A stretch of DNA of 57,545 nt. Source: Deltaproteobacteria bacterium. GTDB lineage: Bacteria; Myxococcota_A; UBA796; SXON01. Made by a program: the position numbers and the translations under genes. Shown here piece after piece: positions 14,909 through 29,670 of the stretch (the stretch's first letter is position 1; each line of letters starts with the position of its first letter). Location: contig VGRE01000001.1 of the NCBI GenBank assembly GCA_016875435.1, positions 1-57,545 of the forward strand. The letters are read 5' to 3'. Under the pieces are notes generated by a model. It had not been told where the DNA came from, ran no database searches, and saw only the letters and a program-made list of their open reading frames with translations.

Positions 14909-14932
14909 GTCGAATATCGGAGCCCGCCGCGA

Positions 14933-15616: not shown

Positions 15617-15776
15617 GGTGTAGGACGCGGGCTTTAGGGCCCGAGGCTGGGATACGCGGGGCCTCGCCCTGTCCCGCTTGCGGGAGCGGTTGTCAAAGGG
15701 GCCGGAGAGGTCGCTTCACCCCTCAAGCCTTTCCCGCCCGATTCCGATTTCGTTCTCATCACAGAGGAGTGCCCCG

Positions 15777-16331: not shown

Positions 16332-17201
16332 GTGGTGATTCACCCGCTCGCCGTGGCCATTGCCGCCACCCTGGTGCTCGGGGCGGCGAAGCTCGCGGTG
16401 GCGCTCGTCACCGGCAGTCACGCGGTGATGGCCTCGGCCGCTGACTCGCTGGGCGACGCCATCGTCAGCGGCGTCAACCTGATCATGGTGCGCCAGGCGG
16501 CCGAGCCGCCGGACGAGGGCCACCCGTGGGGTCACGGCAAGGCCGAGGCGCTGGCCTCCCTCGCGCAGGTCGCCGTGCTGGCGCTGGTGGTGGGCGCCAT
16601 CGGCGTCAACGCGGTGGGCGCGCTGCTCGGCGGTGCCGGGCCGGTGCCGGCGGCAGGCCCCACGCTCGGCGTCATGGCCGTGTCCATGCTCGGCTCGCTG
16701 TCGATCAGCGCGTACCTGTCCCGCGCGGCGAGGCGCACCGGCTCGCTCCTCATCCGGGCCGACGCCGTCCACTACCGCATGGACCTCTTGAGCGGCGCCG
16801 CCGTGGTCCTCGGCCTCGTCGCGAGCCAGGTTCTCGGCAACGCTGTCGGTGACGCCGGTGCGAGCTTGCTCGTCAGCGCGATCATGGTGAAGGAGGTGTA
16901 CGGCGTGGGTCGCGAGGCCATCGACGAACTGATGGACCGTCCCCTGCCGCCCGAGGAGACCGCCCGGATCGAGTCGGCGCTCCGCGAGATGGGCGCGCCG
17001 CTGGTCTCGTGGCACGACCTGCGCACCCGGCGCTCGGGACCCCATCGCTTCGTGCAGGTGCACGTGGTGCTGCCGGCCGACATTCCCTTCGCCGAGGCTC
17101 ACGCCGCAGCCGACGCTGTCGAGGCCCGCCTGCGCGGCGCGCTGCCCAATCTCGACGTCATCGTGCACGCCGACCCCGAGGGCGTAGAGGAGACGCCCTG
17201 A
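16332..17201 (+). CDS. cation diffusion facilitator (CDF) family metal efflux transporter
   Basis: SHAVMASAADSLGDAIVSG and HPWGHGKAEALASL motifs, six TM segments and a C-terminal cytoplasmic domain (VHADPEG). Confidence 0.85.
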   Translation: MVIHPLAVAIAATLVLGAAKLAVALVTGSHAVMASAADSLGDAIVSGVNLIMVRQAAEPPDEGHPWGHGKAEALASLAQVAVLALVVGAIGVNAVGALLGGAGPVPAAGPTLGVMAVSMLGSLSISAYLSRAARRTGSLLIRADAVHYRMDLLSGAAVVLGLVASQVLGNAVGDAGASLLVSAIMVKEVYGVGREAIDELMDRPLPPEETARIESALREMGAPLVSWHDLRTRRSGPHRFVQVHVVLPADIPFAEAHAAADAVEARLRGALPNLDVIVHADPEGVEETP

Positions 17202-17314
17202 GCGCATCCCGCGGCTGGTACTACACCCGTCGCGACGATGGCTCGCTGGAAGCCCGCCCGCATGGCCTCGACGGGCTCGCCGTGGTGCGCTCCCCCGGGT
17301 CGAGCGTCGCGCAA

Positions 17315-20107
17315 ATGCTCCGGCTTGCCCGGGGGCCGGGCGCTTCGGCTGGCGCGGCACCGGGTGGACGGGCCACCGGCGAGGGGGGAGGCTCTCCCAG
17401 CCGCGTGCTCTTCTTCGAGTCGCTGATGAACGCCGAGATGCCGCACAACGACGCCGAGATCTCGCAGGGCGTCCTGCACATGATCTCGTCCTTGCAGGAC
17501 ACGGGTGCCGACGTCCGCCTCGCCAACGTGAAGATGGCGATTACCGGCCGCGAGCGGCCGGCGTCGGGGCTCGACACCCTGGAGGCCGCGCTCGCCGACG
17601 GCCCGGTCAACCTCGTGGTGATCACGCTGCTGGAGGGCTACTGGGAGGGCGTCGTGTCGCTGGTGCGGGAGTTGCGCGCTCTCGGCTGCCGGGGTCACGT
17701 GGCGCTGGGCGGCGTGATGCCCACGCTCGCCCCGGAACACGTGGCGGCGCACTTCCCCGATGCGAGCTTCGTCTGCCGCGGGGCCGGCGAGGTGTTCCTG
17801 CCGCGCCTCTGCGCCATCGTGGGCGACGGCAACGTCGACACGCCCTTCACCGAGACGCAGCTCGCGGCGCTGTCGCGACTCGATGGGCTCATCGCCATCG
17901 ACCGCGCCGGCGGCGTGCTGGTGTCGGCCAACAGCGCTGCCGTCGCCACCGTCCCCGACCTCGACCGGGTGTCCCTCGACCTGTCGAGACTGTCGCCGCG
18001 CCACCTCGAGGCAGGGGTGGAGATCGCCACCTCGCGCGGCTGCGTTCACCGTTGCACCTTCTGCTCGATCATCGGCCGCGAGTCGTACCAGGCGCGATCG
18101 GCGGGCGGTGTGATTGAGCTACTCGATGCCTACGACCAGCGCTATGCCGAGATGTTCGGCGCCGGGCCCCGCGACGCCCGGGGGCGCAACACCCTCGCCC
18201 CCCCCAACGCCTACCGGGTGCACATCAGCGACGACGACTTCGCCTGCGATCGCGCGCGCGCTCTCGACTTCTTCCGCGCGATCCTCGCCACGCCCTTTCG
18301 ACTGGCCTCCTGCCAGGTGTCGGTGGCCGACCTGTGCCAACGTCGCGAGGATATCTTGCTCGCCGAGCCCGACGCGACGCTGCTCGACGCCATCCGGCCC
18401 GAGTGTTTCGACGACCACGGCCGCAGCTTCCCCGCCCGCGACTTCGTGGCCGACCACCGCACCCGCACCTGGTCGAGCTACCTCCAGCTCGGGGTGGAGA
18501 GCTTCTCCGACACCGAGCTGGTGCGGCTGGGGAAGGGCTACAAGCGCGCCCACGTCCGCGCCGTCGTGGCGGCGCTCGCCGAGCGTGGGATCCACCACGA
18601 CGCCTACTTCATTCTCTGCAACGCCGACACCACGGCGATGGAACTCCTGGAGGTGCTCGACGAGGTGGTACGGCTGAAGCTGGCGCATCCCGTGCATTTC
18701 CACGTGCGCTTCCCCGTGGTCCCGAGGTTGGTCGCCTACTTCACCAGCGCCGCCTACCGTCGACACGTGCAGCAGGGGCGGCTCGACCACCTTCGCCTGC
18801 GCGGCCGCCTCGCGGTGGCCGGCTACCCCGAGTTCGACTACCCGCTGGTGGACCACGAGATCCCCGCCGATGCGCGGGTGGAGGCCGCGGTCGAGGCCGG
18901 ATTCTTCACCGACGAGGACTATTACGCCGCGAGTTTCCGTCGCCTGCGTGCGCTATGGCAAGACGACGAGGACCTGGCCCGCGCGCTCGACGATCGGCCA
19001 CGCCGCCGGGTGTTCGAGCTGCTCGACCAGGCCCGCAAGGGCGCCCAGGGCGGCGACCCGCGCGAGGAGGCCCGGATGCGCGGGGTGGCGGAGGGCCTGC
19101 TCGGCCCCGTCGACCGGTGGATCCACGCGTTCCAACGCTACGCGCAGGGGGGCGTCACCCGGCTGGTGGTGATCCCTACCTGGCAGTGCGAGTTGCGCTG
19201 CAACTACTGCTACATCCCCAAGCAGGACGGTCGCGTGATGAGTCGCGACACCATCGACCGCGCCGTCGGCCTGCTTCTGTCGAGCGAACGTTCCGCGTTG
19301 ACCTTGCAGTTCTTCGGCGGCGAGGCGCTGGTCGAGTGGGACAACGTCCGCCACGCCATCGAGAGCGCGTCGCGTCGCGCCGCTGCGCTCGGCAAGACCA
19401 TCGACTTCGTCCTGTCCTCAAATGGCTACTCGCTCGACGCCGACAAGCTCGCCTGGTTGAAACAGTACCCGGTGAAGCTGGAGCTCTCCCTCGACGGCGA
19501 CCCCGACACCCAGCGACGATTCCGTCCCGCGCGACAGGCGGGCGACGACAGCTACACCCAGGGCATCGCCCCCCGGGCCCGCGAGATCGTCGCCAGCGGG
19601 CTCGCCTACGACGTCATCATGGTCTGTCATCCCACCCAGATCGAGCGCCTCTGCGACAACTACCTGCACATCGTGGACCTCGGCTTTCGCCGCGTGCAGA
19701 TCAACTTCGCCCTCGGCAAGCCGTGGACGGTGGCGCAGCGCCAGGGGCTCGCCGACCAGCTGTTCCGGCTGGCGGGGGAGCTCGACCGTCGCCCGGGGGT
19801 GGTGTTCGTCAACGCCGAGAACGCGCCGATGCCGATGCGGCTCAACGCCGAGATCACCGTGGACTGGGACGGCACCATCTACGGCGGCAACGCCTTCCTC
19901 CACGAGACGGAGCACAAGGCCAAGTTCCGCCTCGGTCACCTCGACGAGCGCGCCAACTTCGACCGCTACTGGATGGACGCCCCGCCCAACTCGGAGCTGG
20001 TGAAGTGGAGCTACGAGCCGGGGGTGACCGCGAACAACCTGAAGGTGGGCGCGGTGATGGCGGACTTCGTGCGCTGGTACCGGTCGCGGGGCGCTCAGAG
20101 CGACTGA
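17315..20107 (+). CDS. fusion protein with two radical-SAM cores: B12-binding-type radical SAM (N) plus second radical-SAM domain (C)
   Basis: The Rossmann-like region VNLVVITLLEGYW...VALGGVMPTLAPE is followed by TSRGCVHRCTFCS (CX3CX2C). A second core has IPTWQCELRCNYCYIP plus LQFFGGEALVEW. The start is uncertain: ATG 17315 was chosen because the 17009 start overlaps the CDF gene. Confidence 0.8.
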   Translation: MLRLARGPGASAGAAPGGRATGEGGGSPSRVLFFESLMNAEMPHNDAEISQGVLHMISSLQDTGADVRLANVKMAITGRERPASGLDTLEAALADGPVNLVVITLLEGYWEGVVSLVRELRALGCRGHVALGGVMPTLAPEHVAAHFPDASFVCRGAGEVFLPRLCAIVGDGNVDTPFTETQLAALSRLDGLIAIDRAGGVLVSANSAAVATVPDLDRVSLDLSRLSPRHLEAGVEIATSRGCVHRCTFCSIIGRESYQARSAGGVIELLDAYDQRYAEMFGAGPRDARGRNTLAPPNAYRVHISDDDFACDRARALDFFRAILATPFRLASCQVSVADLCQRREDILLAEPDATLLDAIRPECFDDHGRSFPARDFVADHRTRTWSSYLQLGVESFSDTELVRLGKGYKRAHVRAVVAALAERGIHHDAYFILCNADTTAMELLEVLDEVVRLKLAHPVHFHVRFPVVPRLVAYFTSAAYRRHVQQGRLDHLRLRGRLAVAGYPEFDYPLVDHEIPADARVEAAVEAGFFTDEDYYAASFRRLRALWQDDEDLARALDDRPRRRVFELLDQARKGAQGGDPREEARMRGVAEGLLGPVDRWIHAFQRYAQGGVTRLVVIPTWQCELRCNYCYIPKQDGRVMSRDTIDRAVGLLLSSERSALTLQFFGGEALVEWDNVRHAIESASRRAAALGKTIDFVLSSNGYSLDADKLAWLKQYPVKLELSLDGDPDTQRRFRPARQAGDDSYTQGIAPRAREIVASGLAYDVIMVCHPTQIERLCDNYLHIVDLGFRRVQINFALGKPWTVAQRQGLADQLFRLAGELDRRPGVVFVNAENAPMPMRLNAEITVDWDGTIYGGNAFLHETEHKAKFRLGHLDERANFDRYWMDAPPNSELVKWSYEPGVTANNLKVGAVMADFVRWYRSRGAQSD

Positions 20108-20268
20108 ACGAAGGCCGACATGTCGGCGATCTCCTGGTTCGACAGGACGTCGGCAAACGACGGCATGTCTGCCTTGCCCTCGAGCACGATGTCCACGAAG
20201 GCCTCGCCCACGAGCGCGGGGCCGCTGCCGCCGCCCGTCAAATGGCCAAGGGCGACCGCATCGCGCGG
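20095..20268 (-). pseudogene. relic of a class I cytochrome c gene (C-terminal half only, heme-binding Cys lost)
   Basis: My own translation of the minus strand gives PRDAVALGHLTGGGSGPALVGEAFVDIVLEGKADMPSFADVLSNQEIADMSAFVQSL*. GC3 is strong, a TAA lies directly upstream, and there is no CxxCH, signal peptide or start codon. Confidence 0.4.
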
Positions 20269-20282
20269 TTATTGCGGCCCGA

Positions 20283-21326
20283 GTGCTCCCCACCCTCGCG
20301 CAGGCCGAGCGAAGGCTGGCCCAGGTGCTCGCCGCCGACAGCGCCCAGACCGGCGGCAACACCGACCGCCTGATGCTGATGCTCACGCGGAGCTGCGAGC
20401 TGCGTTGCACCTACTGCCTCGTGGGGCTCAGCGAGGAAGGCGCCGGTCGCGACTTCGCGGGCGAGTACCAGGCCGGTCGCCCGGTGGGCGACATGCCGCG
20501 CGCTACCATCGACGCGGCGCTGGCCCACCTGCTCGCCAGCCCCAAGCCCCGCCTCGGGCTCCAGATCTTCGGCGGCGAGCCCACCCGCCGCTGGGATCTC
20601 GTGCAACACGCGGTCGCCACCGCTCGCCGCGGTCGCGAGGTGGAGGTCCAGCTCACCACCAACGGGCTCAACCTCGACGACGGGCGCCTCCGTTGGCTCG
20701 CCGACCACGACGTGACCGTGCAGCTCAGCGTCGACGGCACCGGTCGCGACAACCGCTTTCGCAGCACCCGGCACGCGCTCGACGCGGCGATCGTCGCGCT
20801 CCGCGCCGCGCCGGTGCGCTGGTTCCTCAACGTGACCGTTCCCCCCGCCGCGAGCGACGAGCTGCCGGAACGCCTCGCTCACGCGCGCGATCTCGGCGTG
20901 CCGGCGGTGCAACTCAACTACGCCACCGGGCTGCGCTACACGCCGGCGCAGTTCGAGTCGTATCTGCGCGGGCTCGACGCCTGCCTGCGGGATGACCAGG
21001 GCCGCGTTCAGCTCTACAACTGGCAGAACGCGGCCGACCCGGCGCCGCTCTGTGGCGACGTCATCTGCGACGCCGACGGCACCTTGCTCCAGGTGGGCGG
21101 CATCTTTCACGAGGCCCGCTTCCCCGCGCTGTATGCCGCCTATCGCCGGGGGACGGTGTTCGATGGCGCCCCCTTTGCAGCCACCCGCTCCACCCTCGCC
21201 GAGCTGGCGGCCCGCACCGAGGCCACCCTCTCGACCGATGACTGGACCTTGTTCCGGCAGGGAATGCTACTCGGCGCGGCGCAAGACCTCGTGTGTCGCC
21301 TCGCGCGGAAGGAGCTCGGTCGATGA
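20283..21326 (+). CDS. radical SAM protein, paralogous to the C-terminal half of the upstream fusion
   Basis: LTRSCELRCTYCLV (CX3CX2C), LQIFGGEPTRRW, and LTTNGLNLDD...QLSVDGTGRDNRFR are collinear with SSNGYSLDAD...ELSLDGDPDTQRRFR of the upstream protein. Confidence 0.8.
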   Translation: MLPTLAQAERRLAQVLAADSAQTGGNTDRLMLMLTRSCELRCTYCLVGLSEEGAGRDFAGEYQAGRPVGDMPRATIDAALAHLLASPKPRLGLQIFGGEPTRRWDLVQHAVATARRGREVEVQLTTNGLNLDDGRLRWLADHDVTVQLSVDGTGRDNRFRSTRHALDAAIVALRAAPVRWFLNVTVPPAASDELPERLAHARDLGVPAVQLNYATGLRYTPAQFESYLRGLDACLRDDQGRVQLYNWQNAADPAPLCGDVICDADGTLLQVGGIFHEARFPALYAAYRRGTVFDGAPFAATRSTLAELAARTEATLSTDDWTLFRQGMLLGAAQDLVCRLARKELGR

Positions 21327-22633
21327 AGCCGGTGATTGTCGTCGGGGGCGGGCCGGCCGGGAGCGTGGCGGCGGCCTTCCTCGCCCGGCACGGGGCGCCC
21401 GTGATCCTGTTCGAAGGAGAGAAGTTCCCCCGGCACCACGTTGGAGAGAGCCTCCAGCCGGCCACCTTCCAGTTCCTCGACCAGCACTTCGGCCTCGGCC
21501 CTGGCTTCGCCGCGCAGGGCTACGCGCGCAAGTACGGCGCGCTCTACGTGTGGGGCGAGTCGCGACAGCCCTGGTCGGTGCTCTTCGATCCCCGTCTCGA
21601 GGCCGAGCTGCCCGGGCTCTCCGAGGAAACGCTGCTTGCAGGCGACTACGAGCGGGCCTGGCAGGTCGACCGCGCCAGCTTCGACAAGCTCCTGCTCGAC
21701 CACGCGCGGGGCTGCGGCGCCGACGTGCGCGAGGGGGTGACGGTCACGGCGGTGCGCTGGGACGGCGACCGCGCCGCGGGCGTGGCCGCCGGCGGGCACG
21801 ACATCGACGCTGCCTACGTGCTCGACGCCTCGGGACAGCGAACGCTGGTGGGCCGGTCGCTCGGGCTGGTGGAGGTGATCGAAGACCTGCGATCGACGTC
21901 TACCTACGCCTACTTCGACGGCGCCGGCGGGGTTCACCCGGTGCTGGGGCGTCACGCGCAGCTCATCGTGACCGTCCCCGAGGGCTGGGTGTGGTTCATC
22001 CCCATCTCGCCCATGCGCACCAGCGTGGGCGTGGTCGTCAAGGAACGTGCCCGGATGGACCTGCCCCGTTTCCTCGACGTGGTCCGCGCGGCCGTGCCCA
22101 TCGACGAGGGCGTGCTCGTCAACCCGGCCGACCCGCTCCACTTCGTCCGCGACTGGTCCTACGCGCTCCGGAAGACGACGGGGCCCGGCTGGACCGCCAT
22201 CGGCGACGCGGCGGCCTTTGTCGATCCCATCCTCTCGGGCGGGGTGGACTTCGCGGTGCGCGGCGCGGTGAACGCGGCGATCGGCGTCTTGCGCGTGCTC
22301 GACGGGGCCGACGAGGCGGCGACCATGGGCGACATCGCCACCCGCCTGCATCGCGAGTTCCGCGCGTACTTGCGCCTCGCGCGCTACTGGTACGGAAACA
22401 ACAGGTCGACCGAGAGCTTTTTCTGGGAGGCTCACGAGGAGCTGGGCGCCGAGTCGCTCTCCACGCCGCTGCGGGCCTTCGTGTACCTCACCAGCGGGCG
22501 CTACGCGGCCGACCACAGCTTCAAGGTGTTCCAGCAGTGGCAGGAAGAGAAGATGTTCCGCGCCCTCGGCGTGGACAAGTCGCGACTGGGGCAGGCCCTG
22601 AAAGCTAGAAAGAGTGACGAACCTGGGCGATGA
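21323..22633 (+). CDS. FAD-dependent oxidoreductase, flavin-dependent halogenase-like
   Basis: ATG at 21323 overlaps the upstream stop (ATGA). VVGGGPAGS dinucleotide fold, HVGESL, DASGQRTLVGRSLGL, EGWVWFIPIS (the WxWxIP motif) and FVDPILSGGV. Confidence 0.8.
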   Translation: MKPVIVVGGGPAGSVAAAFLARHGAPVILFEGEKFPRHHVGESLQPATFQFLDQHFGLGPGFAAQGYARKYGALYVWGESRQPWSVLFDPRLEAELPGLSEETLLAGDYERAWQVDRASFDKLLLDHARGCGADVREGVTVTAVRWDGDRAAGVAAGGHDIDAAYVLDASGQRTLVGRSLGLVEVIEDLRSTSTYAYFDGAGGVHPVLGRHAQLIVTVPEGWVWFIPISPMRTSVGVVVKERARMDLPRFLDVVRAAVPIDEGVLVNPADPLHFVRDWSYALRKTTGPGWTAIGDAAAFVDPILSGGVDFAVRGAVNAAIGVLRVLDGADEAATMGDIATRLHREFRAYLRLARYWYGNNRSTESFFWEAHEELGAESLSTPLRAFVYLTSGRYAADHSFKVFQQWQEEKMFRALGVDKSRLGQALKARKSDEPGR

Positions 22634-23333
22634 CCTGGAGGGTCGGGTCGGCCCAGATGGTCAAGAGAGGCGCGGCGAGCCCAGCGTCGACAGTCCAGCG
22701 CGGGCCCACGCCCGGCTGGGCGTACCGGGCCAGGGCGCGGAGGTGCAGCGGCGACATCCCCCATGCCGCCTCGAACTCGCTGACCATGGACCAGTCCCCG
22801 GCCACCGGCTGCACCCAGGCGATCGCGGCGGCGGCGTCGATGTCGTCGGGGCCCCAGCCGGTGCCCCAGTAGAGCCCGGCGTGCCACCCCGCGTGCGCGT
22901 GCCAGCCGAGGCGCCACGCGCTGCCCTCGTAGGCCACGGCCGCGCCGAGGAAGGCGACCGTGGCCTCGGGTACCGTTCCCCACCACGTGACGGGGCTCTC
23001 GGGGGCCAGCCAGCCCCCCGCCGGGACCTTCACGCGCAAGCCAAGCCCGTGGCGCCGGCCGCGATCGACCAGGAAACGGCTGTCGAGGATGAGATTGCCG
23101 AGCCCGTAGCCCTCCCAATTCTCGCCAAAGCCAGCGGTGCCCGCGAGCTCGGCCGCGAAGCCGAAGCGGCCGGCCCAGGTCTGCCCGCCCAGGGTGAGCT
23201 CCGGGTAGAAGGCGCCATCGAGGTCTTTCACCAGGGCCAGCCGCGTGAAGGCCGAGCGACCGGCGCCGAGGTTCGTCACCCGGAAACCCTCGCAGGGGCA
23301 GGCGGCGAGGGCGAGGCTGGCGGCGAGGATCAC
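22605..23333 (-). CDS. hypothetical secreted beta-barrel-like protein
   Basis: GTG at 23333 overlaps the upstream stop (GTGA) and gives VILAASLALAAC as a signal/lipobox. The protein is Gly/Trp/aromatic-rich with alternating strands and ends in VRHSF. The alternative ATG start is at 23399. Confidence 0.5.
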   Translation of the reverse strand: MILAASLALAACPCEGFRVTNLGAGRSAFTRLALVKDLDGAFYPELTLGGQTWAGRFGFAAELAGTAGFGENWEGYGLGNLILDSRFLVDRGRRHGLGLRVKVPAGGWLAPESPVTWWGTVPEATVAFLGAAVAYEGSAWRLGWHAHAGWHAGLYWGTGWGPDDIDAAAAIAWVQPVAGDWSMVSEFEAAWGMSPLHLRALARYAQPGVGPRWTVDAGLAAPLLTIWADPTLQVIAQVRHSF

Positions 23334-23563
23334 TCGCTGTCCCCGGGGAACGCCTCGAGGCGGTCGAGGGCGGCGTCGAGGCAGGCGGACGCGGCGCACG
23401 CCACGCCCAGCGCGCGAGCGTAGTCAGCCGCCGTTGGCCAGCAGATGCCGAGGTCGCAGTCGCTTCGCTCGTCGAAGTCTCCGGTCGCCGGCGACCCGAA
23501 CCGCCAGGCCTCGGTGGCTCGCGCGAGCAGGTGCGCACGGGTAGTGGCGACGTGCGGGAGCAT
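23330..23563 (-). CDS. minimal nucleotidyltransferase (MNT/Pol-beta fold) domain protein, 77 aa
   Basis: RFGSPATGDFDERSDCDLGI fits the G-S-x(9-13)-D-x-D nucleotidyltransferase signature. It is short for the family. Confidence 0.45.
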   Translation of the reverse strand: MLPHVATTRAHLLARATEAWRFGSPATGDFDERSDCDLGICWPTAADYARALGVACAASACLDAALDRLEAFPGDSE

Positions 23564-23906
23564 CTCGGCAGCCTAGTCGCGGGGCCCCCCCGTGCCAAGC
23601 GCGGCTGCGCCTTGCACGTCGCGCGCGGCATCTATGCATCTGTTCATGCAACGCCGACCCGCATCGGCTGCCTCGACCTCGACACCTTCTTCGGGTCGGT
23701 GGAGCGCTTGCTCGAGCCGGCGCCGAGGTCACGCTCGTGGTGGGGATGGCCCTGTCGGGCGGGGCGGGGAGGCGAGCGCGCGGGGGGGGGCAGTCGTAAG
23801 CGACAGTGTGCTGAGTCGTCGAACGCCAGTACCTCCTCGGGCGGGCGCGCGACGCGCCGTGGCGATCACGAAACGATGGAGGCGGGAGCGGGATAGCTCC
23901 GGGCGA

Positions 23907-24304: not shown

Positions 24305-24928
24305 CTACTCGCCGCGGCGCCGCGCCCAGAGGATTCGCCCCACCACGAGGCCCTGCTGCGGCAGCACCACGAGGGTGTAGCCCACGGTCTCGACGCTCCA
24401 TGACGCGAGCGGCGGGAAGGCCAGCGTGTTGAGAAGCCCCCCGGCGAGGAAGAACAGCCACCCGGCGAGGCTCTCGTGACGAGGGTGCCGCAGCACGCTC
24501 CAGAGGGTGGGTGCGCTGGCGAGGGTGTCGGTGAGGATCGCGAGCAGCAGCGCCGCGCGGGCGTCCCTCGCCCCCAGCAGCAGCAGGAGGCTCAGCAGGG
24601 CGAGCCCGCCGAAAAAAAGGTCGAAGGCGCCGGGCGAGCGGTCGCCCACTCGCCACGCCGCCACGCTCACGCCGAGGCAGCCGAGGAAGTAGGCCACCGG
24701 CAGCCAGTTGGTATCGGTGGCCCCACCGGCCCGGGCGCCGAGGAAGATCACCCCCTGGAGCGCCGTCCAGATCACCCAGGACACCAGCCGTGGGCGGGTG
24801 CCACCCCGCAAGCGAAGGGCTGCGAAGGCTGCCTTTCGCCAGCCGCTCTGGCCGGGGCCGAGCATGTCCAGCAGGTACATCGGGTAGCCGACGAGCGACA
24901 CCAGGGCGGCGACCAGGCCGATGCTCAC
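24305..24928 (-). CDS. hypothetical polytopic membrane protein (207 aa)
   Basis: GTG at 24928 overlaps the kinase stop (GTGA). About six hydrophobic segments. No family recognised. Confidence 0.6.
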   Translation of the reverse strand: MSIGLVAALVSLVGYPMYLLDMLGPGQSGWRKAAFAALRLRGGTRPRLVSWVIWTALQGVIFLGARAGGATDTNWLPVAYFLGCLGVSVAAWRVGDRSPGAFDLFFGGLALLSLLLLLGARDARAALLLAILTDTLASAPTLWSVLRHPRHESLAGWLFFLAGGLLNTLAFPPLASWSVETVGYTLVVLPQQGLVVGRILWARRRGE

Positions 24929-26681
24929 GCCGGCATCACCGACCGCAGGTGCTCCCGGTTGTGGAAGAACTCGCGCACCACCGCCGCGTGACGCGCCTGC
25001 GCCTCGGCCGCGGCCCCCTCCTGGCCCAGCGCCTTCACGTCGCGCAGGAGAGCCAGCACGATGGCAGGCACCAGGGCCGCGCGCTCCGATGATTCCAACC
25101 TGCGCTTCGCGTCGTAACAGCGCACGAAGTGAACCACTCGCCGGGGATCGGCCTGCTCGTCGTTGCCCCGGTAGCCGGCGTACACGGCGGAACGGCCCAG
25201 ATCAAACAACATTGGTGAAACCCTGAGTTTTTCTAGGTCGAGCACGGCGATGCGACCGTCGCCGAGCGACACCGCGTGGTCGCGATGGAAGCTCCCGTGG
25301 ACGAGCCCGCGCGGGAGCTCGGTTGCGACACCCGCCATGGCCCAGTCCCAGGCCTCGCGCAGCCCCGGCGCGTCGAAGGGCTGGAGCGTGGCCCAGGGCA
25401 GGTCCTCGTCGCGATTGTCGATCTCGGGGAACTCGAGGCGCAGATCGCCGATGGCGTGGAAGGCCGCGAGGGCGTGGGCCAGGCGCTCGATGTCGCGGGC
25501 GCTCGACGAGGGGCGTGCGTCGCCGAGGTAGGGGTAGAGCGCCGCCACGCGGGGGCCCACGCGCAGGATCGAGCGGCCATCGGGGAGACGAGCGGCGACT
25601 CGACGACAGCCGCGGCGCCCTGGAGGCGCTGGTCGATCGCTTGCTCCAGCTCGAAAAGCCGCCCCGGAACGGGCTTGTTGAAGACCTTGAGCACCGCCTC
25701 GCCCTCGCGCAGGCTCACCCGGATCACGTCGTTGCAGGCATGGCGCTGGTAGCTCGCCGTCGCGACGGCGCCGAGGCCGAGGGCGCCGAGATCCACGCCG
25801 TCGAGGGGGTGCCAGAGACCGTCCTCCGGGCGCCACGGCCCGGTCCACTCGGTCTTGGGGAAGGCCCGCGGGTACCGGTCCTGCCCGTGCGCCGGCCGCG
25901 ACGGGGTGCAGGCCGCCTCCCAGGGCGAGGACTCGCCCTTGGCGAGGCGACGCTCGGCGTGCAGCAGCCACAGGTACAGGCCGATCCGCGCCCGATCAGC
26001 GTCTTGACCGGTCACGGCCTCCCAGGCGGCGGCGATGGGATCGATGCCGCATGGATCGCCTCCGGCGCCGTGGACCGCCTGGGCAAGGTCGATCTCGGGG
26101 TCGGCCCAGCCCACGGCCCCGAAGTCGAGCAGGCCCACGAGTTCGGTGCTGCGCGTCACCCAGTTCGAGGGGTGGAGGTCGAGGTGACAGGTGGCATCGC
26201 CCACCAGCACCAGCGACGCGAAGGCCTCCCGCAGCTCGGCCGGCAACTCCGGTCGCGACACGCGCAGTCGGGTGCGTTGCACCCAGTCCATCGCGCTCGC
26301 GCCGAGGGGCGCGCGCTGGCGGTGGAGGCGGCCGAGGATGGCGCCCGCGGCAGGGAGCTGGTCGGGGCGCAGGCGAAGGGGCCGGGGGTTTCCCTGGCGC
26401 ACGTCGTCGAGCACCAGCGTGGCGCCTGCATCCGGGTGAACCCGAGGGGCGACGAAGCCGAGGTCGAGGCCAAGCACGGCGCGCTCGCGATCGGCGCGGG
26501 CGGGCTCGTCGTGGATCTTGATGAAGCGACGCTCGAAGCTGGCGTCGCGACGGCGATACACGTGCACCCCGGCGTGGGCGCCCACCAGATCGAGGGGTCC
26601 GAACTTGGCGCGTAGCGCCACCTCGTCGATCGCGTCGGCCCGCCCGTGCGCGCGGGGCAGTCCCGGCGGGAGCGGCATCAC
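24925..26681 (-). pseudogene. tandem APH/choline-kinase-type phosphotransferase (two kinase domains) interrupted by an apparent frameshift near 25585-25612
   Basis: Domain 1 is complete in the 482-aa ORF (HLDLHPSNW, LLDFGAVGW). The domain 2 N-lobe (VIRVSLREGEAVLKVFNK) is in that same frame. Its C-lobe (LVHGSFHRDHAVSL, VLDLEKL) is in the frame of the 348-aa ORF. After the junction both ORFs turn into Arg/Pro/Ser junk. Confidence 0.6.
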
Positions 26682-27211
26682 GTGGCTGTCTCGGGCGGGT
26701 CCCAGGACTCGAGGTCACCCTCCCTCAGCGCGAAGGGGAGCTTGATGTCGACCGTGAAGGTGAGACGAGGCTGGTCGCTCGGGTTCCGCGCCGAGTGGGG
26801 AACTCGCACGTCGAGCAGGCGCAGGGTGCCCAGGGGCCAGCGGGCCTCTTCCTCGGCGGGGAGCTGGCAGGCGAGGTGTACCCGCACCATGTCGTCGTCG
26901 CGCAAGTCGGTGTGCTTGGCCAGGTCGGCGCCGGGGTCGAGGCGCAAGAAGCCGGCGACGGGCGCGTTCGGCAGCCGGTCGAGGACGGCCATCGTGGCGG
27001 GACAGCGCGCGCGGTTGGCGGCGAAGTCGACGCCGGGGAATTCCTTTTCCCAGGGGCCAACGCGCAGGAGGAAGCCACGCCACTGGCCGCGGTAGCGCTC
27101 GCGCGAGGGCATGTCGACGAACAACTCGGCCGGGATCGACAGCGCCTCGGCGCGGATGGCCTCGGCGGCGGCGAGAATGTGCTCGGTGCCGGGAATGTCG
27201 GCGGGAGACAT
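26678..27211 (-). CDS. aspartyl/asparaginyl beta-hydroxylase family (cupin, 2OG/Fe(II)) protein
   Basis: Internal ATG at 27211. GFLRLDPGADLAKHTDLRDDDMVRVHLACQLP matches the Asp_Arg_Hydrox H-x-D ... R-x-H-L core. The stop overlaps the kinase start. Confidence 0.75.
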   Translation of the reverse strand: MSPADIPGTEHILAAAEAIRAEALSIPAELFVDMPSRERYRGQWRGFLLRVGPWEKEFPGVDFAANRARCPATMAVLDRLPNAPVAGFLRLDPGADLAKHTDLRDDDMVRVHLACQLPAEEEARWPLGTLRLLDVRVPHSARNPSDQPRLTFTVDIKLPFALREGDLESWDPPETAT

Positions 27212-27372
27212 GCGCGGAATGTACCGCGCGTCGCGGACCTCGGAGGGGCGCTGGCCCTGCTCGCCAGCTTGATCGCCTTCTCGCCGCCACGAGCGGTTCG
27301 GGGGAGGTTGGGGAGTCAGGGCCGCCACCCAGGGGGTGGGCGGACCCGTAGCGGCTCGGATACCGTCCGCAC

Positions 27373-28272
27373 GTGGTGCCCGCGCACGAGGATCCCGCCA
27401 TCCACGCCTTGCTCGCGGGGGGGCCGGCGTTGCAGGTGGCGTGGCTGCGGAGGCGGTCGCTCCCAGCGGCGGTGTTGCTTCCCCTGCTCAACGCCTGCGC
27501 CCAGCGGTGTTTCTTCTGCGCCGGGCCGGGGACGACGATGGTGCCCGAGCGCGAGGTCACGTCCTGGGCGACGATCGACGCCCAGCTCTGTCCGCCTCCC
27601 GGCGTGTCGCGACTGCTCGTGGGCGGGAACGAGCCGACGCTACACCCGAGGTTCGCCAACGCGCTGCAACTCGCGCGCGATCGCGGCTTCGGCCACGTCG
27701 ACCTGATGACCAACGGCGCCACGCTCATCACCGGCGCGCGAGCGTGGGCGGCGCTCGGCCTTCGCGAGGTGGTGGTGCCCCTCTACGGCACCCGCGCCGC
27801 GGAACACGACCCTGTCGCCGGGTCGCCCTGCTTCGACGCGGTGATGTCCGGGCTCCGCGCCGCGCAGGCGGCCGACATCCGCGTGTGGGTGCACACCCTC
27901 GCGACGCGGGAAACGCTGCCGCGGCTCGGAGAGCTCGCCGCGTTCGCCCGGGCGGAGTTCGGCACGCGCCTCGGCCTGGGGCTGCTGCGCCCCAAGCCGG
28001 TATTCGACTGGTCGCGACACGCGGTCTCCCTGGGACAGCTGCGCCGTGCCCTCGTCCATCTCGACGTGGACCTGCTGGCTGCGCCGCTTTGCCTCGCGTG
28101 GGGACAGGGTGACGACCTCGTCCCTGGGCCATCCAGCCCCGCCTCGGAACGTTCCCCACTAGCGACGATCTACTTCCTCACCCAGCGACGCCGCTACCTC
28201 CCGGCGTGCGACGGCTGCCCGTCGCGAGCGAACTGCGCGGGGGTGGTGGATGCCTACGCTACATCACCCTGA
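27373..28272 (+). CDS. radical SAM protein with C-terminal Cys cluster
   Basis: LLNACAQRCFFCAG (CX3CX2C), LLVGGNEPTLHP, DLMTNGATL and the C-terminal CDGCPSRANCAG. It is divergent from the hydroxylase operon. Confidence 0.8.
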   Translation: MVPAHEDPAIHALLAGGPALQVAWLRRRSLPAAVLLPLLNACAQRCFFCAGPGTTMVPEREVTSWATIDAQLCPPPGVSRLLVGGNEPTLHPRFANALQLARDRGFGHVDLMTNGATLITGARAWAALGLREVVVPLYGTRAAEHDPVAGSPCFDAVMSGLRAAQAADIRVWVHTLATRETLPRLGELAAFARAEFGTRLGLGLLRPKPVFDWSRHAVSLGQLRRALVHLDVDLLAAPLCLAWGQGDDLVPGPSSPASERSPLATIYFLTQRRRYLPACDGCPSRANCAGVVDAYATSP

Positions 28273-28440: not shown

Positions 28441-29670
28441 TCACGGCGCGCCCAGCCGGTGGAGCACAATCTCGCTCGCGATGCCCATCCGGGGCGGCAG
28501 CCCGGTGTGCCAGTTGCCGCGGTGCACCCACAGCGCCGTGCCCTCGCGCTCGAACCGGCCCTGGTCGTAGGCGCCGAACAAACGGAGCAAGCTCCAGGGG
28601 CGGCCCACGTCCACGCCCACCTGTCCCCCGTGGGTGTGGCCGGCGAGCACCAGCTGGAATCGTCCCGGGGGCACCGCGTCGAATACCCGCGGATCGTGTA
28701 CCATCAGCAGGCGACGGTCGGCGGGTGGGGCGGGCATGCGGGCGATCGCTGCCGCCGCGCGCGCGCGGGCGTCCTTCCAGTGGAAGTTCACCGCGGCCAC
28801 CTCTACCGTGAGGTCGCCGAGCACCAGGAGCCGCGACTCGTCTACGAGGCAGTGCATGCCTCGGGCCTCGAAACCGGCGCGCAGTCGCTCGGCGACGGGG
28901 AGGTCGTGATTGCCGAGGCAGGCGACGACGGGAACGTTCAGTCGCGACAGGGCGTCGAGCACGAAGTCAAAGTCGCCCTCGGAGTAGGGCATCAGGTGGT
29001 CGCCGGTGACGGCCACGATCTCCGGCGAGAGCGCCTGGGCTCGCCCGACCACCGCGTCGAGGTCGCGGCGTGTCATCAGGGGGCAGCCGTGGAGGTCGCT
29101 CAGGTGGACGACGCGCAGGGCGCGCTCTCCGGTGCCCACCCGGTGCTCGCGGACGGTCGAGTGGCGCAGGTAGGTCCACGCCGTGCCGAGGAGAGCCAGG
29201 CCGAGCGGCCCGAGGAGCCAGGCCCCCGGCCACCAGTCCCGCGTCAAGAGCGCGTAGGGCGCCCAGAAACACAGCCAGAGCCCGGTCCACAGCGAGAACG
29301 CCATCGCCGCCTGCGCGAGCCGGGCCAGCGCCGTCCAGAACGGCCCCGGGTCGCGACGTAGATCGAGCGCGTGGAAGAGGCCGTAGATCGCGGCCGGTCC
29401 CACGGCGAGCGAGAGGCCGAGCGCCCAGGAACGAGCGCCCGAGAGGCTCCACAGCGTGGGGTAAACACCCACCATCGCCACCACGAGCACGGCCACGGCG
29501 TGGTCGTTGAGCGTTCGTCCACCGCGCCACACCCGCCAGCAGGTGAGCACCGCGAGGAGCGCCGCGGCGCCCCAGCCGAGAAGGTGAGCCTGCGCGCTAC
29601 CCGCAGTCAACGAGGCAGTCGCTACCGGTGTCGTCGGGCTCGGGGCTGGACTCGCCACCGCCGGAACCAT
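28441..29670 (-). CDS. membrane-anchored metallophosphoesterase (calcineurin-like)
   Basis: Several N-terminal TM segments, then VVHLSDLHG, VTGDH, LGNHD and LAGHTHGGQV. Confidence 0.85.
   Translation of the reverse strand: MVPAVASPAPSPTTPVATASLTAGSAQAHLLGWGAAALLAVLTCWRVWRGGRTLNDHAVAVLVVAMVGVYPTLWSLSGARSWALGLSLAVGPAAIYGLFHALDLRRDPGPFWTALARLAQAAMAFSLWTGLWLCFWAPYALLTRDWWPGAWLLGPLGLALLGTAWTYLRHSTVREHRVGTGERALRVVHLSDLHGCPLMTRRDLDAVVGRAQALSPEIVAVTGDHLMPYSEGDFDFVLDALSRLNVPVVACLGNHDLPVAERLRAGFEARGMHCLVDESRLLVLGDLTVEVAAVNFHWKDARARAAAAIARMPAPPADRRLLMVHDPRVFDAVPPGRFQLVLAGHTHGGQVGVDVGRPWSLLRLFGAYDQGRFEREGTALWVHRGNWHTGLPPRMGIASEIVLHRLGAP

What the first reader, a model, noticed from the sequence alone, without database searches (positions are those of the whole stretch)
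17315..22633. Operon with a double radical-SAM fusion, a paralogous radical-SAM protein and a flavin-halogenase-like enzyme, with no visible precursor peptide
The roughly 930-aa protein carries two complete CX3CX2C radical-SAM cores. The first is a B12-binding-type N-terminal half (CVHRCTFC). The second is CELRCNYC with FFGGEALVEW. That second half is clearly paralogous to the next gene (CELRCTYC, IFGGEPTRRW, collinear xxxNGxxLDD...LSxDG...RFR blocks). This implies a duplication in which one copy fused to a class-B-like enzyme. The third gene is ATGA-coupled and has the WxWxIP and FVDPILSGG motifs of flavin-dependent halogenases. Proteins with two radical-SAM cores are rare. I could not find a small precursor-like ORF on either strand in or around the operon, so the substrate is open: a peptide encoded elsewhere, a lipid or a cofactor. 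Neither of the two paralogous domains shows a Cys-rich SPASM/twitch tail. A CDF metal exporter lies directly upstream on the same strand.
Basis: partly seen in the sequence, partly recalled or inferred. Interest (0 to 1): 0.75.

Follow-up and report, generated by a model that had tools for sequence, protein, structure and literature searches.

The report
Double radical-SAM enzyme linked to Ser-His-Gly peptides
The operon is real: it encodes a conserved fusion of a B12-type and a peptide-maturase-type radical-SAM enzyme, a paralogous radical-SAM enzyme and a flavin halogenase, and its missing substrate is most likely a (Ser-His-Gly)n repeat peptide of the poorly understood His-Xaa-Ser system, encoded elsewhere in the genome.

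Summary
One ORF carries two complete radical-SAM (rSAM) cores. The N-half is cobalamin-type. The C-half resembles the peptide maturases CteB and anSME but has no auxiliary-cluster cysteines. The next gene is a paralogue of the C-half, and an ATGA-coupled flavin halogenase with all its signature motifs follows.

The fusion is not an assembly artefact: more than 120 full-length homologues and about 50 loci were found, all in Myxococcota MAGs.

The gene set extends to 28.3 kb. It adds a frameshifted tandem APH kinase, an Asp/Asn-hydroxylase-like protein and a third, HxsC-like rSAM.

New here: in 9 related loci the fusion lies in or beside a type-4 His-Xaa-Ser operon (HxsD, HxsB, and an HxsA4 precursor ending (SHG)n-QW). 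A reverse search from (SHG)n DNA found distant fused and split homologues next to such peptides in unrelated bacteria. An HxsB gene that very probably belongs to the window's own MAG lies on another contig, and a read-set assembly carrying the same HxsB sequence has an HxsA4 precursor directly after it.

Best reading (about 0.55): this is an unlinked tailoring module for HxsA4 peptides. The chemistry is inferred, not shown.

The parts
16332..17201 (+). CDF (FieF-like) cation-efflux gene. Its stop codon overlaps the probable start of the fusion gene. It is syntenic only in close relatives (L001, L024, L040).
   Evidence: Pfam Cation_efflux 125.7 bits and ZT_dimer 70.3 bits; NCBIfam CDF superfamily 183 bits against a cut-off of 82. 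CTGA overlap. Synteny.
17198..20107 (+). Double radical-SAM fusion protein, 969 aa if it starts at CTG 17198. Domains by residue: small beta domain 1-45; Rossmann/B12-like domain about 69-245; rSAM barrel 1 about 270-560; helical linker 573-650; rSAM barrel 2 about 654-870; Cys-free SPASM-like tail 886-969.
   Evidence: HMM hits. AF2 model pLDDT 88.6. Foldseek: CteB 7e-17, anSME, ChlB, MgmA, TsrM, CysS, TokK. More than 120 full-length homologues. Start-codon comparison.
18041..18064 (+). First [4Fe-4S]/SAM motif, CVHRCTFC (C282, C286, C289). The three cysteines are invariant in 49 homologues.
19187..19210 (+). Second [4Fe-4S]/SAM motif, CELRCNYC (C664, C668, C671). The three cysteines are invariant in 49 homologues. 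No other conserved Cys lies downstream.
20095..20241 (-). 3' remnant of a small class-I cytochrome c gene. It lost the CXXCH part through a deletion of about 200 nt. It fills the fusion-rSAM2 gap and is not part of the system.
   Evidence: The window ORF ends ...GKADMPSFADVLSNQEIADMSAFVQSL. L024 holds an intact copy with CAGCH at the same place. It is absent from L001.
20283..21326 (+). rSAM2, a stand-alone paralogue of the fusion's C-half. It is SPASM-less: only the CxxxCxxC motif is conserved.
   Evidence: Radical_SAM 48.5 bits. 32% identity and E 1e-33 to the C-half. Cys conservation in 15 orthologues. It follows the fusion directly in 17 loci.
21323..22633 (+). Flavin-dependent halogenase of the CndH/CmlS type (variant B), ATGA-coupled to rSAM2.
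   Evidence: Trp_halogenase 109.9 bits. PDB matches: 8zop 1.9e-56, CndH 3e1t 2e-50, CmlS 4e-45. GxGxxG, the Lys of RKYGA (aligned to the Lys of CndH's IKRGG), WxWFIP and FVDPILSGG are invariant in the 10 cluster-linked orthologues, apart from GxGxxG in those whose extracted N-terminus was cut. It is fused to the double rSAM in P0082.
24925..26681 (-). Tandem APH-type phosphotransferase gene. In the window it is frameshifted near 25584. It is a conserved companion in L007 and L056.
   Evidence: Pfam APH in both halves. tblastn with the intact 639-aa L056 orthologue switches from frame -1 to frame -3 at 25581-25587. Synteny.
26678..27328 (-). Asp/Asn beta-hydroxylase-like Fe/2-oxoglutarate cupin. 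An H-x-D and a later His are present. It is a recurrent companion of the fusion (10 loci).
   Evidence: PF05118 56.6 bits against a cut-off of 22.6. Weak LpxO/OlsC hits. Co-occurrence.
27373..28272 (+). rSAM3, a third radical-SAM protein, divergent from the hydroxylase gene. Its best family match is HxsC. It has CxxxCxxC plus four conserved C-terminal Cys, consistent with an auxiliary cluster.
   Evidence: Radical_SAM 45.3 bits. TIGR03977 HxsC 56.6 bits, below the 267.9 cut-off. Cys columns in 10 orthologues. Orthologues in L006, L007, L012, L018, L023, L038, L056. It groups with the 2nd and 3rd rSAMs of Hxs4 operons.
28441..29670 (-). Calcineurin-type metallophosphoesterase. It is adjacent, but its membership in the system is not supported by synteny.
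   Evidence: Metallophos 39.7 bits. YaeI/LpxG-like hits below cut-off. No orthologue was found near the fusion in other loci.

Best explanation
The operon is an unlinked tailoring module of a type-4 His-Xaa-Ser (Hxs) peptide-maturation system.

Proposed substrate: an HxsA4-type precursor, made of a leader, then ...HC-(Ser-His-Gly)n-Gln-Trp. It is encoded elsewhere in this genome together with HxsB, HxsD, an HxsD-like protein and further rSAM enzymes.

Proposed roles:
- The fused enzyme performs two radical steps on that peptide. Its N-half, a cobalamin-type (class B) rSAM, most likely C-methylates an unactivated carbon or does other cobalamin-dependent radical chemistry. Its C-half, an HxsB/CteB/anSME-like rSAM without auxiliary clusters, abstracts a hydrogen for a cross-link, an epimerisation or a dehydrogenation.
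- rSAM2 repeats the C-half type of chemistry at another position.
- The flavin halogenase adds Cl or Br to an electron-rich ring, with the invariant C-terminal Trp as the obvious candidate.
- The Asp/Asn-hydroxylase-like protein, the tandem APH kinase and rSAM3 at 24.9-28.3 kb belong to the same extended set.

Shown here: the domain identities, the reality of the fusion, the paralogy, the halogenase motifs and the genomic association with HxsA4 systems.

Inferred only: the substrate in this genome, every chemical step, and the biological role. Type-1 HXS is an antiphage system; the role of type 4 is unknown.
For: 1. Orthologues of the fusion lie in or beside Hxs4 operons in 9 loci.
- L030: FUS-c38-HxsD-HxsDrel-HxsB-HxsA4-rSAM-rSAM-rSAM, with abutting or overlapping genes.
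- L181: c38-HxsD-HxsDrel-HxsB-HxsA4-rSAM-rSAM-DUF2237-rSAM-FUS.
- Also L006, L021, L025, L028, L032, L055 and L180.
- In L030 the Hxs calls pass NCBIfam cut-offs: HxsB 490.6 vs 370; HxsA4 95.9 vs 55; HxsD 55.6 vs 50; HxsD_rel 63.6 vs 41.

2. L006 carries a fusion 70-73% identical to the window's. One 13-kb cluster there holds FUS, the hydroxylase, rSAM3, the halogenase and the Hxs4 core.

3. The reverse test agrees. A metagenome scan for (SHG)n DNA returned 119 loci.
- Distant homologues of both halves sit next to the peptide in L110. There a fused 1064-aa protein is 32% identical over 870 aa (E 6e-99), and an rSAM2-like gene follows it (E 1e-27). The L110 peptide scores 77.7 bits on HxsA4.
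- L103 has a fused 852-aa version, and L085 (GC 0.37) has the two halves as separate adjacent genes.

4. The window's C-half and rSAM2 group with the rSAM placed directly after HxsA4. rSAM3 groups with the later Hxs4 rSAMs. The sub-threshold family hits point the same way: PapB and then HxsB for the C-half and rSAM2, HxsC for rSAM3.

5. HxsB MBM4392126.1, on an 11.5-kb contig, falls in the accession block of the window's MAG (MBM4389494-506). Its 98%-identical twin MBM4367615.1 falls in the block of the sister MAG that holds L024. A 3.9-kb read-set assembly (L178) encoding the JGI-called form of that HxsB, and a close relative (L179), show c38-HxsD-HxsDrel-HxsB-HxsA4.

6. The halogenase is fused to the double rSAM in P0082 and lies next to HxsD there.

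7. Fold: the C-half matches peptide or protein maturases (CteB, anSME, ChlB, SkfB, SuiB).
Against: - No Hxs gene and no His-x-Ser repeat lies in the 57.5-kb window.
- In the window's own lineage the Hxs4 operon (L179) is complete without the fusion.
- The fusion also occurs alone, with no rSAM, halogenase or Hxs neighbour within 10 kb (L057, L058).
- Most loci of the window's subclade show only FUS-rSAM2 with the hydroxylase, MiaB-like and APH genes. None of those companions was seen in non-myxobacterial (SHG)n loci.
- The fusion is highly conserved (54-90% identity, many invariant residues). That is more typical of an enzyme with a fixed housekeeping substrate than of a RiPP (ribosomally made, post-translationally modified peptide) tailoring enzyme.
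- No HxsD-like or other recognisable leader-binding domain was found inside the fusion.
- Assigning MBM4392126.1 to the same MAG rests on accession order and on the parallel with the sister MAG, not on the assembly record.
- B12-binding is just below the Pfam cut-off for this protein.
- All chemistry is by analogy.
Confidence: 0.55

Rival explanations
1. The module modifies a different ribosomal peptide or a protein, not HxsA4, that is encoded elsewhere. On this view the enzymes were recruited from an Hxs4-type ancestor, and their adjacency to Hxs4 in some lineages reflects shared descent or clustering of rSAM genes rather than a shared substrate.
For: - The window's subclade pairs FUS-rSAM2 with an Asp/Asn-hydroxylase-like protein, a MiaB/RimO-like methylthiotransferase and a tandem APH kinase (L007, L012, L013, L016, L018, L038, L056). 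These are absent from Hxs4 operons of other phyla.
- From established knowledge, RimO and AspH-type enzymes both act on Asp beta-carbons, and the (SHG)n core has no Asp.
- The Hxs4 operon of the window's lineage is complete without the fusion.
- The fold of the C-half and the family hits still point to a peptidyl substrate.
Against: - Distant homologues (32% identity), fused or split, sit beside (SHG)n peptides in unrelated bacteria. This is hard to explain by shared descent within Myxococcota.
- The fusion lies inside the operon, with overlapping genes, in L030 and L181.
- No alternative conserved small ORF travels with the genes.
Confidence: 0.22
2. The enzymes act on a non-peptide substrate such as a membrane lipid or a cofactor. 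For example, they might carry out B12-dependent methylation plus C-C or C-O bond formation on an acyl or isoprenoid chain, followed by hydroxylation and halogenation.
For: - The hydroxylase's only named relatives are the lipid hydroxylases LpxO and OlsC, at 31.8 and 21.3 bits, far below cut-off.
- A YaeI/LpxG-like phosphoesterase is adjacent.
- FA_hydroxylase genes lie near the fusion in L056 and L057, and PMT_2 glycosyltransferases in L055 and L056.
- There are weak N-half hits to the 'lipid biosynthesis B12-binding/radical SAM protein' family.
- Orphan occurrences and high conservation fit a housekeeping role.
- CndH/CmlS-type halogenases normally act on small, carrier-bound molecules (established knowledge).
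Against: - All these hits are far below family cut-offs, and the lipid-type neighbours are not consistently syntenic.
- The nearest sequence and structure relatives of the C-half and rSAM2 are peptide or protein maturases.
- The repeated operon-level linkage with HxsA4, HxsB and HxsD is unexplained by this view.
Confidence: 0.15
3. The long ORF is an assembly or frameshift artefact that joins two separate genes.
For: The contig is from a MAG, and another gene in the window (the tandem APH) does carry a frameshift. A split arrangement exists in one distant low-GC relative, L085.
Against: - More than 120 independent full-length homologues of 950-1100 aa exist, from NCBI, JGI, ENA and Logan assemblies.
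- The alignment is collinear across the junction.
- The linker is modelled with confidence.
- A triple fusion with the halogenase exists.
Confidence: 0.01

Closest known systems
HXS (HxsABCD) system: a His-Xaa-Ser repeat effector matured by two radical-SAM enzymes (Haft and Basu families TIGR03976-03979). The type-1 system of E. coli was shown in 2026 to block phage DNA entry (PMC13128918).
   Same: - It is a system of several rSAM enzymes acting on a His-x-Ser repeat substrate.
- The window's C-half and rSAM2 have HxsB as their second-best named relative, and rSAM3 has HxsC as its best.
- Orthologues of the fusion sit inside type-4 Hxs operons with HxsA4, HxsB, HxsD and HxsD_rel.
   Different: - None of the window's proteins reaches an Hxs family cut-off (85 vs 370; 56.6 vs 267.9).
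- The window holds no HxsA, HxsB or HxsD.
- The C-half and rSAM2 lack the SPASM cysteines of HxsB.
- Type 1 has no cobalamin-type rSAM, no halogenase, no hydroxylase and no kinase.
- Its HxsA is a 214-aa peptidoglycan-binding protein with five repeats, not a short peptide with about 10-25 SHG units.
- According to that paper, 99.7% of the HxsA proteins it surveyed are in Pseudomonadota.
Class B (cobalamin-dependent) radical-SAM enzymes: TsrM, TokK, CysS, MgmA (methylases), and AprD4.
   Same: - The N-half has a Rossmann-like domain followed by a CxxxCxxC partial barrel.
- Foldseek matches have E 1e-9 to 1e-7.
- Relatives at 31-40% identity pass PF02310 (39 of 40).
   Different: - No sequence match to any solved structure, and B12-binding is just under the cut-off (31.4 vs 32.1).
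- It carries an extra N-terminal beta domain and is fused to a second rSAM.
- Cobalamin binding and methyl transfer are untested. AprD4, also among the matches, is a diol dehydratase rather than a methylase.
SPASM/twitch peptide and protein maturases: CteB, anSME, PapB, ChlB, SkfB, SuiB, QhpD.
   Same: These are the best sequence and fold relatives of the C-half and rSAM2: CteB 5wgg phmmer 8e-15 and Foldseek 7e-17; PapB model 106.5 bits. A beta-hairpin 'DxDGxxY' element is retained where the SPASM domain would start.
   Different: The defining auxiliary-cluster cysteines are absent and are not conserved in the family. Chemistry that needs auxiliary clusters is therefore unlikely.
Variant-B flavin-dependent halogenases (CndH, CmlS, PltA). 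The peptide halogenases MibH and SrpI are analogues by function, cited from my own knowledge.
   Same: GxGxxG, the catalytic Lys, WxWxIP and FxxPxxSxG are all present and conserved. Like CndH, the protein is short and lacks a large substrate-enclosing C-terminal domain.
   Different: It is linked to rSAM enzymes, and once fused to one, rather than to PKS/NRPS carrier proteins. No flavin reductase or carrier protein lies nearby. The substrate and halide are unknown. It also scores 138 bits (cut-off 240) on QhpG, a peptidyl-Trp hydroxylase, so hydroxylation is not excluded.
FbiC (fused CofG/CofH F0 synthase), the textbook protein with two radical-SAM domains (my own knowledge).
   Same: It is one polypeptide with two complete rSAM cores, thought to act in succession on one pathway. 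Fused and split forms both occur in nature (here L085 against L103 and L110).
   Different: It is not homologous beyond the superfamily: there were no CofG/CofH hits. FbiC has no cobalamin-type domain, and its two halves are not of the class-B and SPASM-like kinds.

Membership tests
Radical SAM superfamily (PF04055) | CxxxCxxC cluster motif within a partial TIM barrel; expected twice in the fusion | tested here: met
   Two Pfam stretches were found (N-half 29.5 bits, C-half 45.1 bits). Both triads are invariant in 49 homologues. Two barrels in the AF2 model match solved rSAM enzymes.
Class B cobalamin-dependent radical SAM | N-terminal Rossmann-type B12-binding domain (PF02310) before the rSAM core | tested here: inconclusive
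   The score is 31.4 bits against a cut-off of 32.1. Paralogues at 31-40% identity pass (39 of 40, best 8.4e-14), and the fold matches TsrM, TokK, CysS and MgmA.
Class B cobalamin-dependent radical SAM | Binds cobalamin and uses it in catalysis | not testable with these tools
   This needs purified protein (UV-vis or ICP for Co). No B12 riboswitch is in the window.
SPASM/twitch radical-SAM maturases | C-terminal Cys-rich motif binding one or two auxiliary [4Fe-4S] clusters | tested here: not met
   No conserved Cys lies after C671 in the fusion. In rSAM2 only the CxxxCxxC is invariant. PF13186 was not hit. rSAM3, in contrast, has four conserved C-terminal Cys.
SPASM/twitch radical-SAM maturases | Overall fold and sequence relationship to CteB, anSME and PapB | tested here: met
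   Foldseek gives CteB 7.4e-17 and anSME 6e-14. phmmer gives 5wgg 8.1e-15. The PapB model scores 106.5 bits, below the 340 cut-off.
His-Xaa-Ser (Hxs) system | HxsA-type precursor with His-x-Ser repeats in the locus | tested here: not met
   There is none in the window. HxsA4 peptides or other type-4 Hxs genes are present in 9 related loci. One lies on L178, a read-set contig carrying the HxsB sequence that is attributed to the same MAG.
His-Xaa-Ser (Hxs) system | HxsB (TIGR03978 at 370 bits or more) and HxsC (TIGR03977 at 267.9 bits or more) | tested here: not met
   The C-half scores 85.1 bits and rSAM2 56.2 bits on HxsB. rSAM3 scores 56.6 bits on HxsC. They are relatives, not members.
His-Xaa-Ser (Hxs) system | HxsD or HxsD-like small protein | tested here: not met
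   None is in the window. hhalign of three fusion segments against HxsD and HxsD_rel alignments gave probabilities below 1%.
Flavin-dependent halogenase (PF04820; CndH/CmlS type) | GxGxxG, catalytic Lys, WxWxIP and FxxPxxSxG motifs, and an HMM score above cut-off | tested here: met
   The HMM score is 109.9 bits against 21. The alignment to CndH puts the K of RKYGA on the Lys of CndH's IKRGG motif. All motifs are invariant in the 10 orthologues, apart from GxGxxG in those whose extracted N-terminus was cut.
Flavin-dependent halogenase (PF04820; CndH/CmlS type) | Halogenating rather than hydroxylating activity | not testable with these tools
   The motifs favour halogenation. A sub-threshold QhpG hit (138.2 vs 240) keeps hydroxylation possible.
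Asp/Asn beta-hydroxylase family (PF05118) | HMM score above cut-off and an Fe-binding HxD...H | tested here: met
   The score is 56.6 bits against 22.6. HTD and a later His are visible in the translation. LpxO and OlsC equivalogs were not met (31.8 vs 500).

The most novel reading that the evidence does not exclude
Myxococcota, and some unrelated bacteria, make a so far undescribed class of rSAM-modified peptide. A (Ser-His-Gly)n-Gln-Trp core would be processed by up to seven radical-SAM domains, including a dedicated cobalamin-type/SPASM-less fusion enzyme. In some lineages it would also be halogenated, hydroxylated and phosphorylated.

The product would be a heavily cross-linked, methylated poly-histidine peptide. 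It might act as a metal-binding molecule; metal exporters flank the module in the window and in L056. Or, like type-1 HXS, it might act as an envelope-located antiphage effector.
Probability: 0.3. Interest if true: 0.75.

Novelty: new variant of a known kind. Interest (0 to 1): 0.62.

Why it matters
The His-Xaa-Ser systems were predicted in 2011. Only the type-1 system has been studied (2026, antiphage), and even there the chemistry, a +8 Da change on an SHRSS motif, is unresolved.

The type-4 systems have simple (SHG)n cores and occur in metagenomes of very different GC content. They have no known product or role.

This result links a conserved B12-type/SPASM-less double radical-SAM enzyme, its paralogue and a bona fide halogenase to those peptides. 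That gives a concrete, testable substrate for an otherwise orphan enzyme family of several hundred members. It also predicts new radical chemistry on His, Ser or Gly repeats.

The case further shows that a missing precursor in a RiPP-like operon can be recovered by searching from the neighbourhoods of relatives, and from the precursor side.

Tried and rejected
- **Precursor in the window.** Six-frame scans for His-x-Ser or any periodic peptide, and lenient tblastn with three HxsA4 leaders, found nothing near the operon. The only periodic peptide is a (VDSG)n linker in an unrelated lipoprotein at 56.2 kb.
- **Conserved small ORFs.** Clustering 1226 small intergenic ORFs from 54 loci and part of the window gave only alternative-frame noise and lineage-specific synteny.
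- **The minus-strand ORF in the fusion-rSAM2 gap as a precursor.** Rejected. It is a truncated cytochrome c gene.
- **A hidden HxsD or leader-binding domain in the fusion's N-terminus or linker.** Rejected by hhalign, with probabilities below 1%.
- **Anti-phage defence models (PADLOC).** Only weak generic viperin-type rSAM hits appeared.
- **B12 riboswitch or other RNA element.** Rfam found only a tRNA-Met.
- **Promoter and terminator scans.** Uninformative in this 70% GC sequence.
- **Literature searches.** Searches for double or tandem rSAM proteins, for rSAM plus halogenase in Myxococcota, and for PDB entry 8ZOP found nothing relevant.
- **Local Pfam copy.** It lacks PF27806 (HxsD), so HxsD calls rest on NCBIfam and on precomputed Pfam labels.
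- **A first tblastn with the C-half.** It used an out-of-frame translation and was repeated in frame.
- **A look-up of P0429.** It returned nothing; P0433, the JGI-called form of HxsB from the same 11,546-bp contig, worked.

Full report
**1. What is in the sequence**

The window is a 57,545-bp, roughly 70% GC contig of a MAG labelled 'Deltaproteobacteria bacterium'. NCBI already annotates the three genes generically, as 'radical SAM protein', 'radical SAM protein' and 'tryptophan 7-halogenase'.

The plus strand carries, in order:
- a CDF exporter gene (16332-17201);
- a long ORF ending at 20107;
- a 347-aa ORF (20283-21326);
- a 436-aa ORF (21323-22633).

The last two genes overlap in ATGA.

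**2. The fusion is a real double radical-SAM enzyme**

Pfam finds Radical_SAM in two separate stretches. B12-binding scores 31.4 bits, just under its 32.1-bit cut-off.

An AlphaFold2 model built on 49 homologues is confident (pLDDT 88.6, pTM 0.85). It shows, by residue:
- a small N-terminal beta domain;
- a Rossmann-like domain;
- a first barrel;
- a helical linker (573-650);
- a second barrel;
- a C-terminal tail.

Foldseek against the PDB gives two sets of hits. For the C-half: CteB (7e-17), anSME, ChlB, SkfB and SuiB. For the N-half: MgmA, TsrM, AprD4, CysS and TokK. Sequence search alone finds only CteB and TigE for the C-half and nothing for the N-half.

In the 49-sequence alignment both CxxxCxxC triads are invariant, and no cysteine after C671 is conserved.

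A full HMMER scan of 1.84 billion representatives with the N-half found 536 relatives. The second tier (31-40% identity) passes PF02310 in 39 of 40 cases and includes other two-rSAM proteins. This supports a class-B origin for the N-half.

**3. Not an artefact, and the start is earlier**

More than 120 homologues of 950-1100 aa cover 96-100% of the protein at 54-90% identity. They come from NCBI, JGI, ENA and Logan assemblies. A genome scan returned 54 loci, all from Myxococcota-type MAGs.

One homologue, P0082 (1402 aa), has the halogenase fused in front of the double rSAM.

The homologues share an N-terminal motif (DRGWYY...). At the equivalent position L040 has ATG and L001 has GTG. The window and its 93% relative L024 have CTG, overlapping the CDF stop (CTGA). 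Differences between the window and L024 upstream of 17315 are mostly synonymous. The region is therefore translated. Initiation is most likely at CTG 17198 or coupled to CDF termination.

**4. The other two genes**

rSAM2 is a paralogue of the C-half (32% identity over 280 aa, E 1e-33). Across 15 orthologues only its CxxxCxxC is invariant.

The flavoprotein matches solved variant-B halogenases: 8zop 1.9e-56, CndH 2e-50, CmlS 4e-45 and PltA. Its Lys in RKYGA aligns with the Lys of CndH's IKRGG motif. GxGxxG, WxWFIP and FVDPILSGG are conserved in the cluster-linked orthologues compared. It also scores below threshold on QhpG, LodB and GoxB, which are peptidyl-Trp-modifying flavoproteins.

**5. 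The gene set is larger than the finding**

Clustering ORFs across the loci and directed tblastn show recurrent companions:
- an Asp/Asn-hydroxylase-like cupin (window 26678-27328, minus strand; 10 loci);
- a third rSAM transcribed divergently from it (27373-28272; 9 loci), whose best family is HxsC and which has four conserved C-terminal Cys;
- a MiaB/RimO-like methylthiotransferase (7 loci; absent from the window);
- a tandem APH kinase (window 24925-26681, L007, L056).

L056 and L007 repeat the window's arrangement 'APH-(MiaB)-hydroxylase | rSAM3' a few kb from FUS-rSAM2. rSAM2 follows the fusion directly in 17 loci. The halogenase lies within 10 kb in 10 loci. Some loci hold the fusion alone (L057, L058).

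**6. The link to His-Xaa-Ser systems**

Four loci near the fusion encode peptides ending ...SHGSHG...SHGQW. In L030 these and their neighbours pass NCBIfam cut-offs as HxsA4, HxsB, HxsD and HxsD-like. The further rSAMs there have HxsC4 as best, sub-threshold match.

The fusion is the first gene of that operon in L030. It is the last gene, overlapping its upstream neighbour, in L181. Hxs4 genes lie within 10 kb of the fusion in 9 loci: L006, L021, L025, L028, L030, L032, L055, L180 and L181.

L006 has a fusion 70-73% identical to the window's. It holds the fusion, hydroxylase, rSAM3, halogenase and Hxs4 core in one cluster.

**7. The reverse test**

A metagenome scan for DNA encoding (SHG)5 returned 119 loci with GC from 0.26 to 0.77.
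- Most encode leader-(SHG)n peptides ending in W or Y, with HxsB and HxsD nearby.
- In about 18 loci an rSAM of the C-half/rSAM2 type is encoded in the locus, directly downstream of the peptide gene where the layout is visible.
- Three loci carry homologues of both halves. L110 has a fused 1064-aa protein, collinear with the window's over 870 aa (32% identity, E 6e-99), followed by an rSAM2-like gene and preceded by an HxsA4 peptide. L103 has a fused 852-aa protein. L085 has two adjacent genes.

A bit-score matrix places the window's C-half and rSAM2 with the 'post-HxsA4' rSAMs. It places rSAM3 with the later Hxs4 rSAMs.

**8. The same genome probably has the precursor**

Searching with L006's HxsB found a 90%-identity cluster with exactly two NCBI MAG entries.
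- MBM4392126.1 lies 2,620 accessions after the window's genes.
- MBM4367615.1 lies 1,065 accessions after L024's genes.
- The two are 98% identical, matching the window/L024 pairing seen for every other gene.

L178, a 3.9-kb read-set assembly that encodes the JGI-called form of the first HxsB, carries c38-HxsD-HxsDrel-HxsB and then a peptide ...LLAQHCSHGSHGSHG... that runs off the contig end. The close relative L179 shows the whole operon, with a 158-aa HxsA4 and three rSAMs but no fusion.

In this lineage the core operon and the tailoring module are therefore unlinked.

**9. Model, and what is inferred**

Shown here:
- the domain identities;
- the reality of the fusion;
- the paralogy;
- the lack of auxiliary-cluster cysteines;
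- the halogenase motifs;
- the extended conserved gene set;
- the operon-level association of the fusion family with HxsA4 systems;
- the probable presence of such a system in this MAG.

Inferred:
- that HxsA4 is the substrate here;
- that the N-half methylates, or does other cobalamin chemistry;
- that the C-half and rSAM2 form cross-links or oxidise;
- that the halogenase targets the conserved C-terminal Trp;
- any biological role.

For the type-1 system, HxsB, HxsC and HxsD are needed for a +8 Da change on an SHRSS motif and for antiphage activity (PMC13128918). Nothing is published on type 4.

**10. Rivals**

- A different peptide or protein substrate (0.22) fits the Asp-directed look of the hydroxylase and MiaB-like companions, and the self-sufficient Hxs4 operon in L179.
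- A lipid or cofactor substrate (0.15) fits weak LpxO/OlsC/LpxG-like hits, occasional lipid-type neighbours, orphan loci and the high conservation. It does not explain the Hxs linkage.
- An assembly artefact is excluded.

**11. Novelty**

The parts belong to known superfamilies, and the Hxs system is a known kind. The following are, as far as the searches show, not described:
- the B12-type/SPASM-less fusion;
- its paralogue;
- the halogenase (once fused to the double rSAM);
- their link to (SHG)n peptides.

No curated family model covers them. I file the finding as a new variant of a known kind.

Noticed in passing
window 17198-17201: The fusion gene appears to start at a CTG that overlaps the CDF stop codon (CTGA). 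Orthologues have ATG (L040) or GTG (L001) at the same place. This suggests non-canonical initiation or termination-reinitiation coupling with the metal exporter.
   Followed up: partly
window 20095-20241 (-); L024 3952 to about 4240 (-): This is a truncated small class-I cytochrome c gene. Only its C-terminal 48 codons are left in the window. L024 has the intact lipoprotein-like copy with CAGCH, wedged tail-to-tail between the fusion and rSAM2.
   Followed up: yes
window 24925-26681 (-), break near 25584: The tandem APH phosphotransferase gene is frameshifted (frame -1 to -3) relative to the intact 639-aa orthologue in L056. It is either a pseudogene or a MAG consensus error.
   Followed up: partly
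window 15991-16067 (+): A tRNA-Met (CAT) lies between a small conserved ORF (15678-15947; also present in L001 and L040) and the CDF gene. The CDF-fusion-rSAM2-halogenase unit therefore starts after a tRNA gene. A pstS-pstC/A-phoU block lies upstream (13107-15616).
   Followed up: partly
window 16332-17201; L056 14271-16820: Metal transporters of different families flank FUS-rSAM2: a CDF exporter before it in the window, L001 and L024 (in L040 it lies about 1.5 kb upstream), and a P-type cation ATPase after it in L056. A poly-His product would bind metals, so this may not be a coincidence.
   Followed up: no
L055 18000-19742; L057 13494-14033; L179 1-8804: Proteins with MopE-type Cu-binding repeats (PF11617) lie next to fusion or Hxs4 loci three times. 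Such repeat proteins seem frequent in these Myxococcota MAGs, so this may be chance.
   Followed up: no
window 22605-23399 (-): A 264-aa ORF ends in Phe and looks like an outer-membrane beta-barrel protein. It converges on the halogenase gene and overlaps its 3' end by 29 nt. It is conserved only in L024 and has no family hit.
   Followed up: partly
window 56248-56389 (within 54933-56645, -): A 12-bp tandem repeat (11.8 copies) encodes a (VDSG)n linker, followed by (ADS)n, in a protein that looks like an FG-GAP/VCBS-type repeat lipoprotein. It is unrelated to the finding.
   Followed up: yes
L059-L177 (metagenome loci): Leader-(Ser-His-Gly)n peptides are found in contigs of GC 0.26-0.77. Their C-termini differ: GSW, GQW, GSY, GNY and RGGWCNPRC. 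Some contigs carry two copies (L143). Repeat number ranges from about 6 to more than 40.
   Followed up: partly
L030 7903-8475; L178 900-1394; L179 8874-9368; L181 3246-3752: A 164-190-aa protein opens the type-4 Hxs operons in Myxococcota. In L028 and L179 it has a twin-arginine-like signal (for example MENRRQFLQRALFG...). It has no family assignment (only the L030 copy was scanned).
   Followed up: no
window 23330-23572 (-): A short ORF gives weak hits to nucleotidyltransferase domains (Polbeta, NTP_transf_2). It may be a toxin-antitoxin remnant lying between the halogenase and the ArsC-like gene.
   Followed up: no
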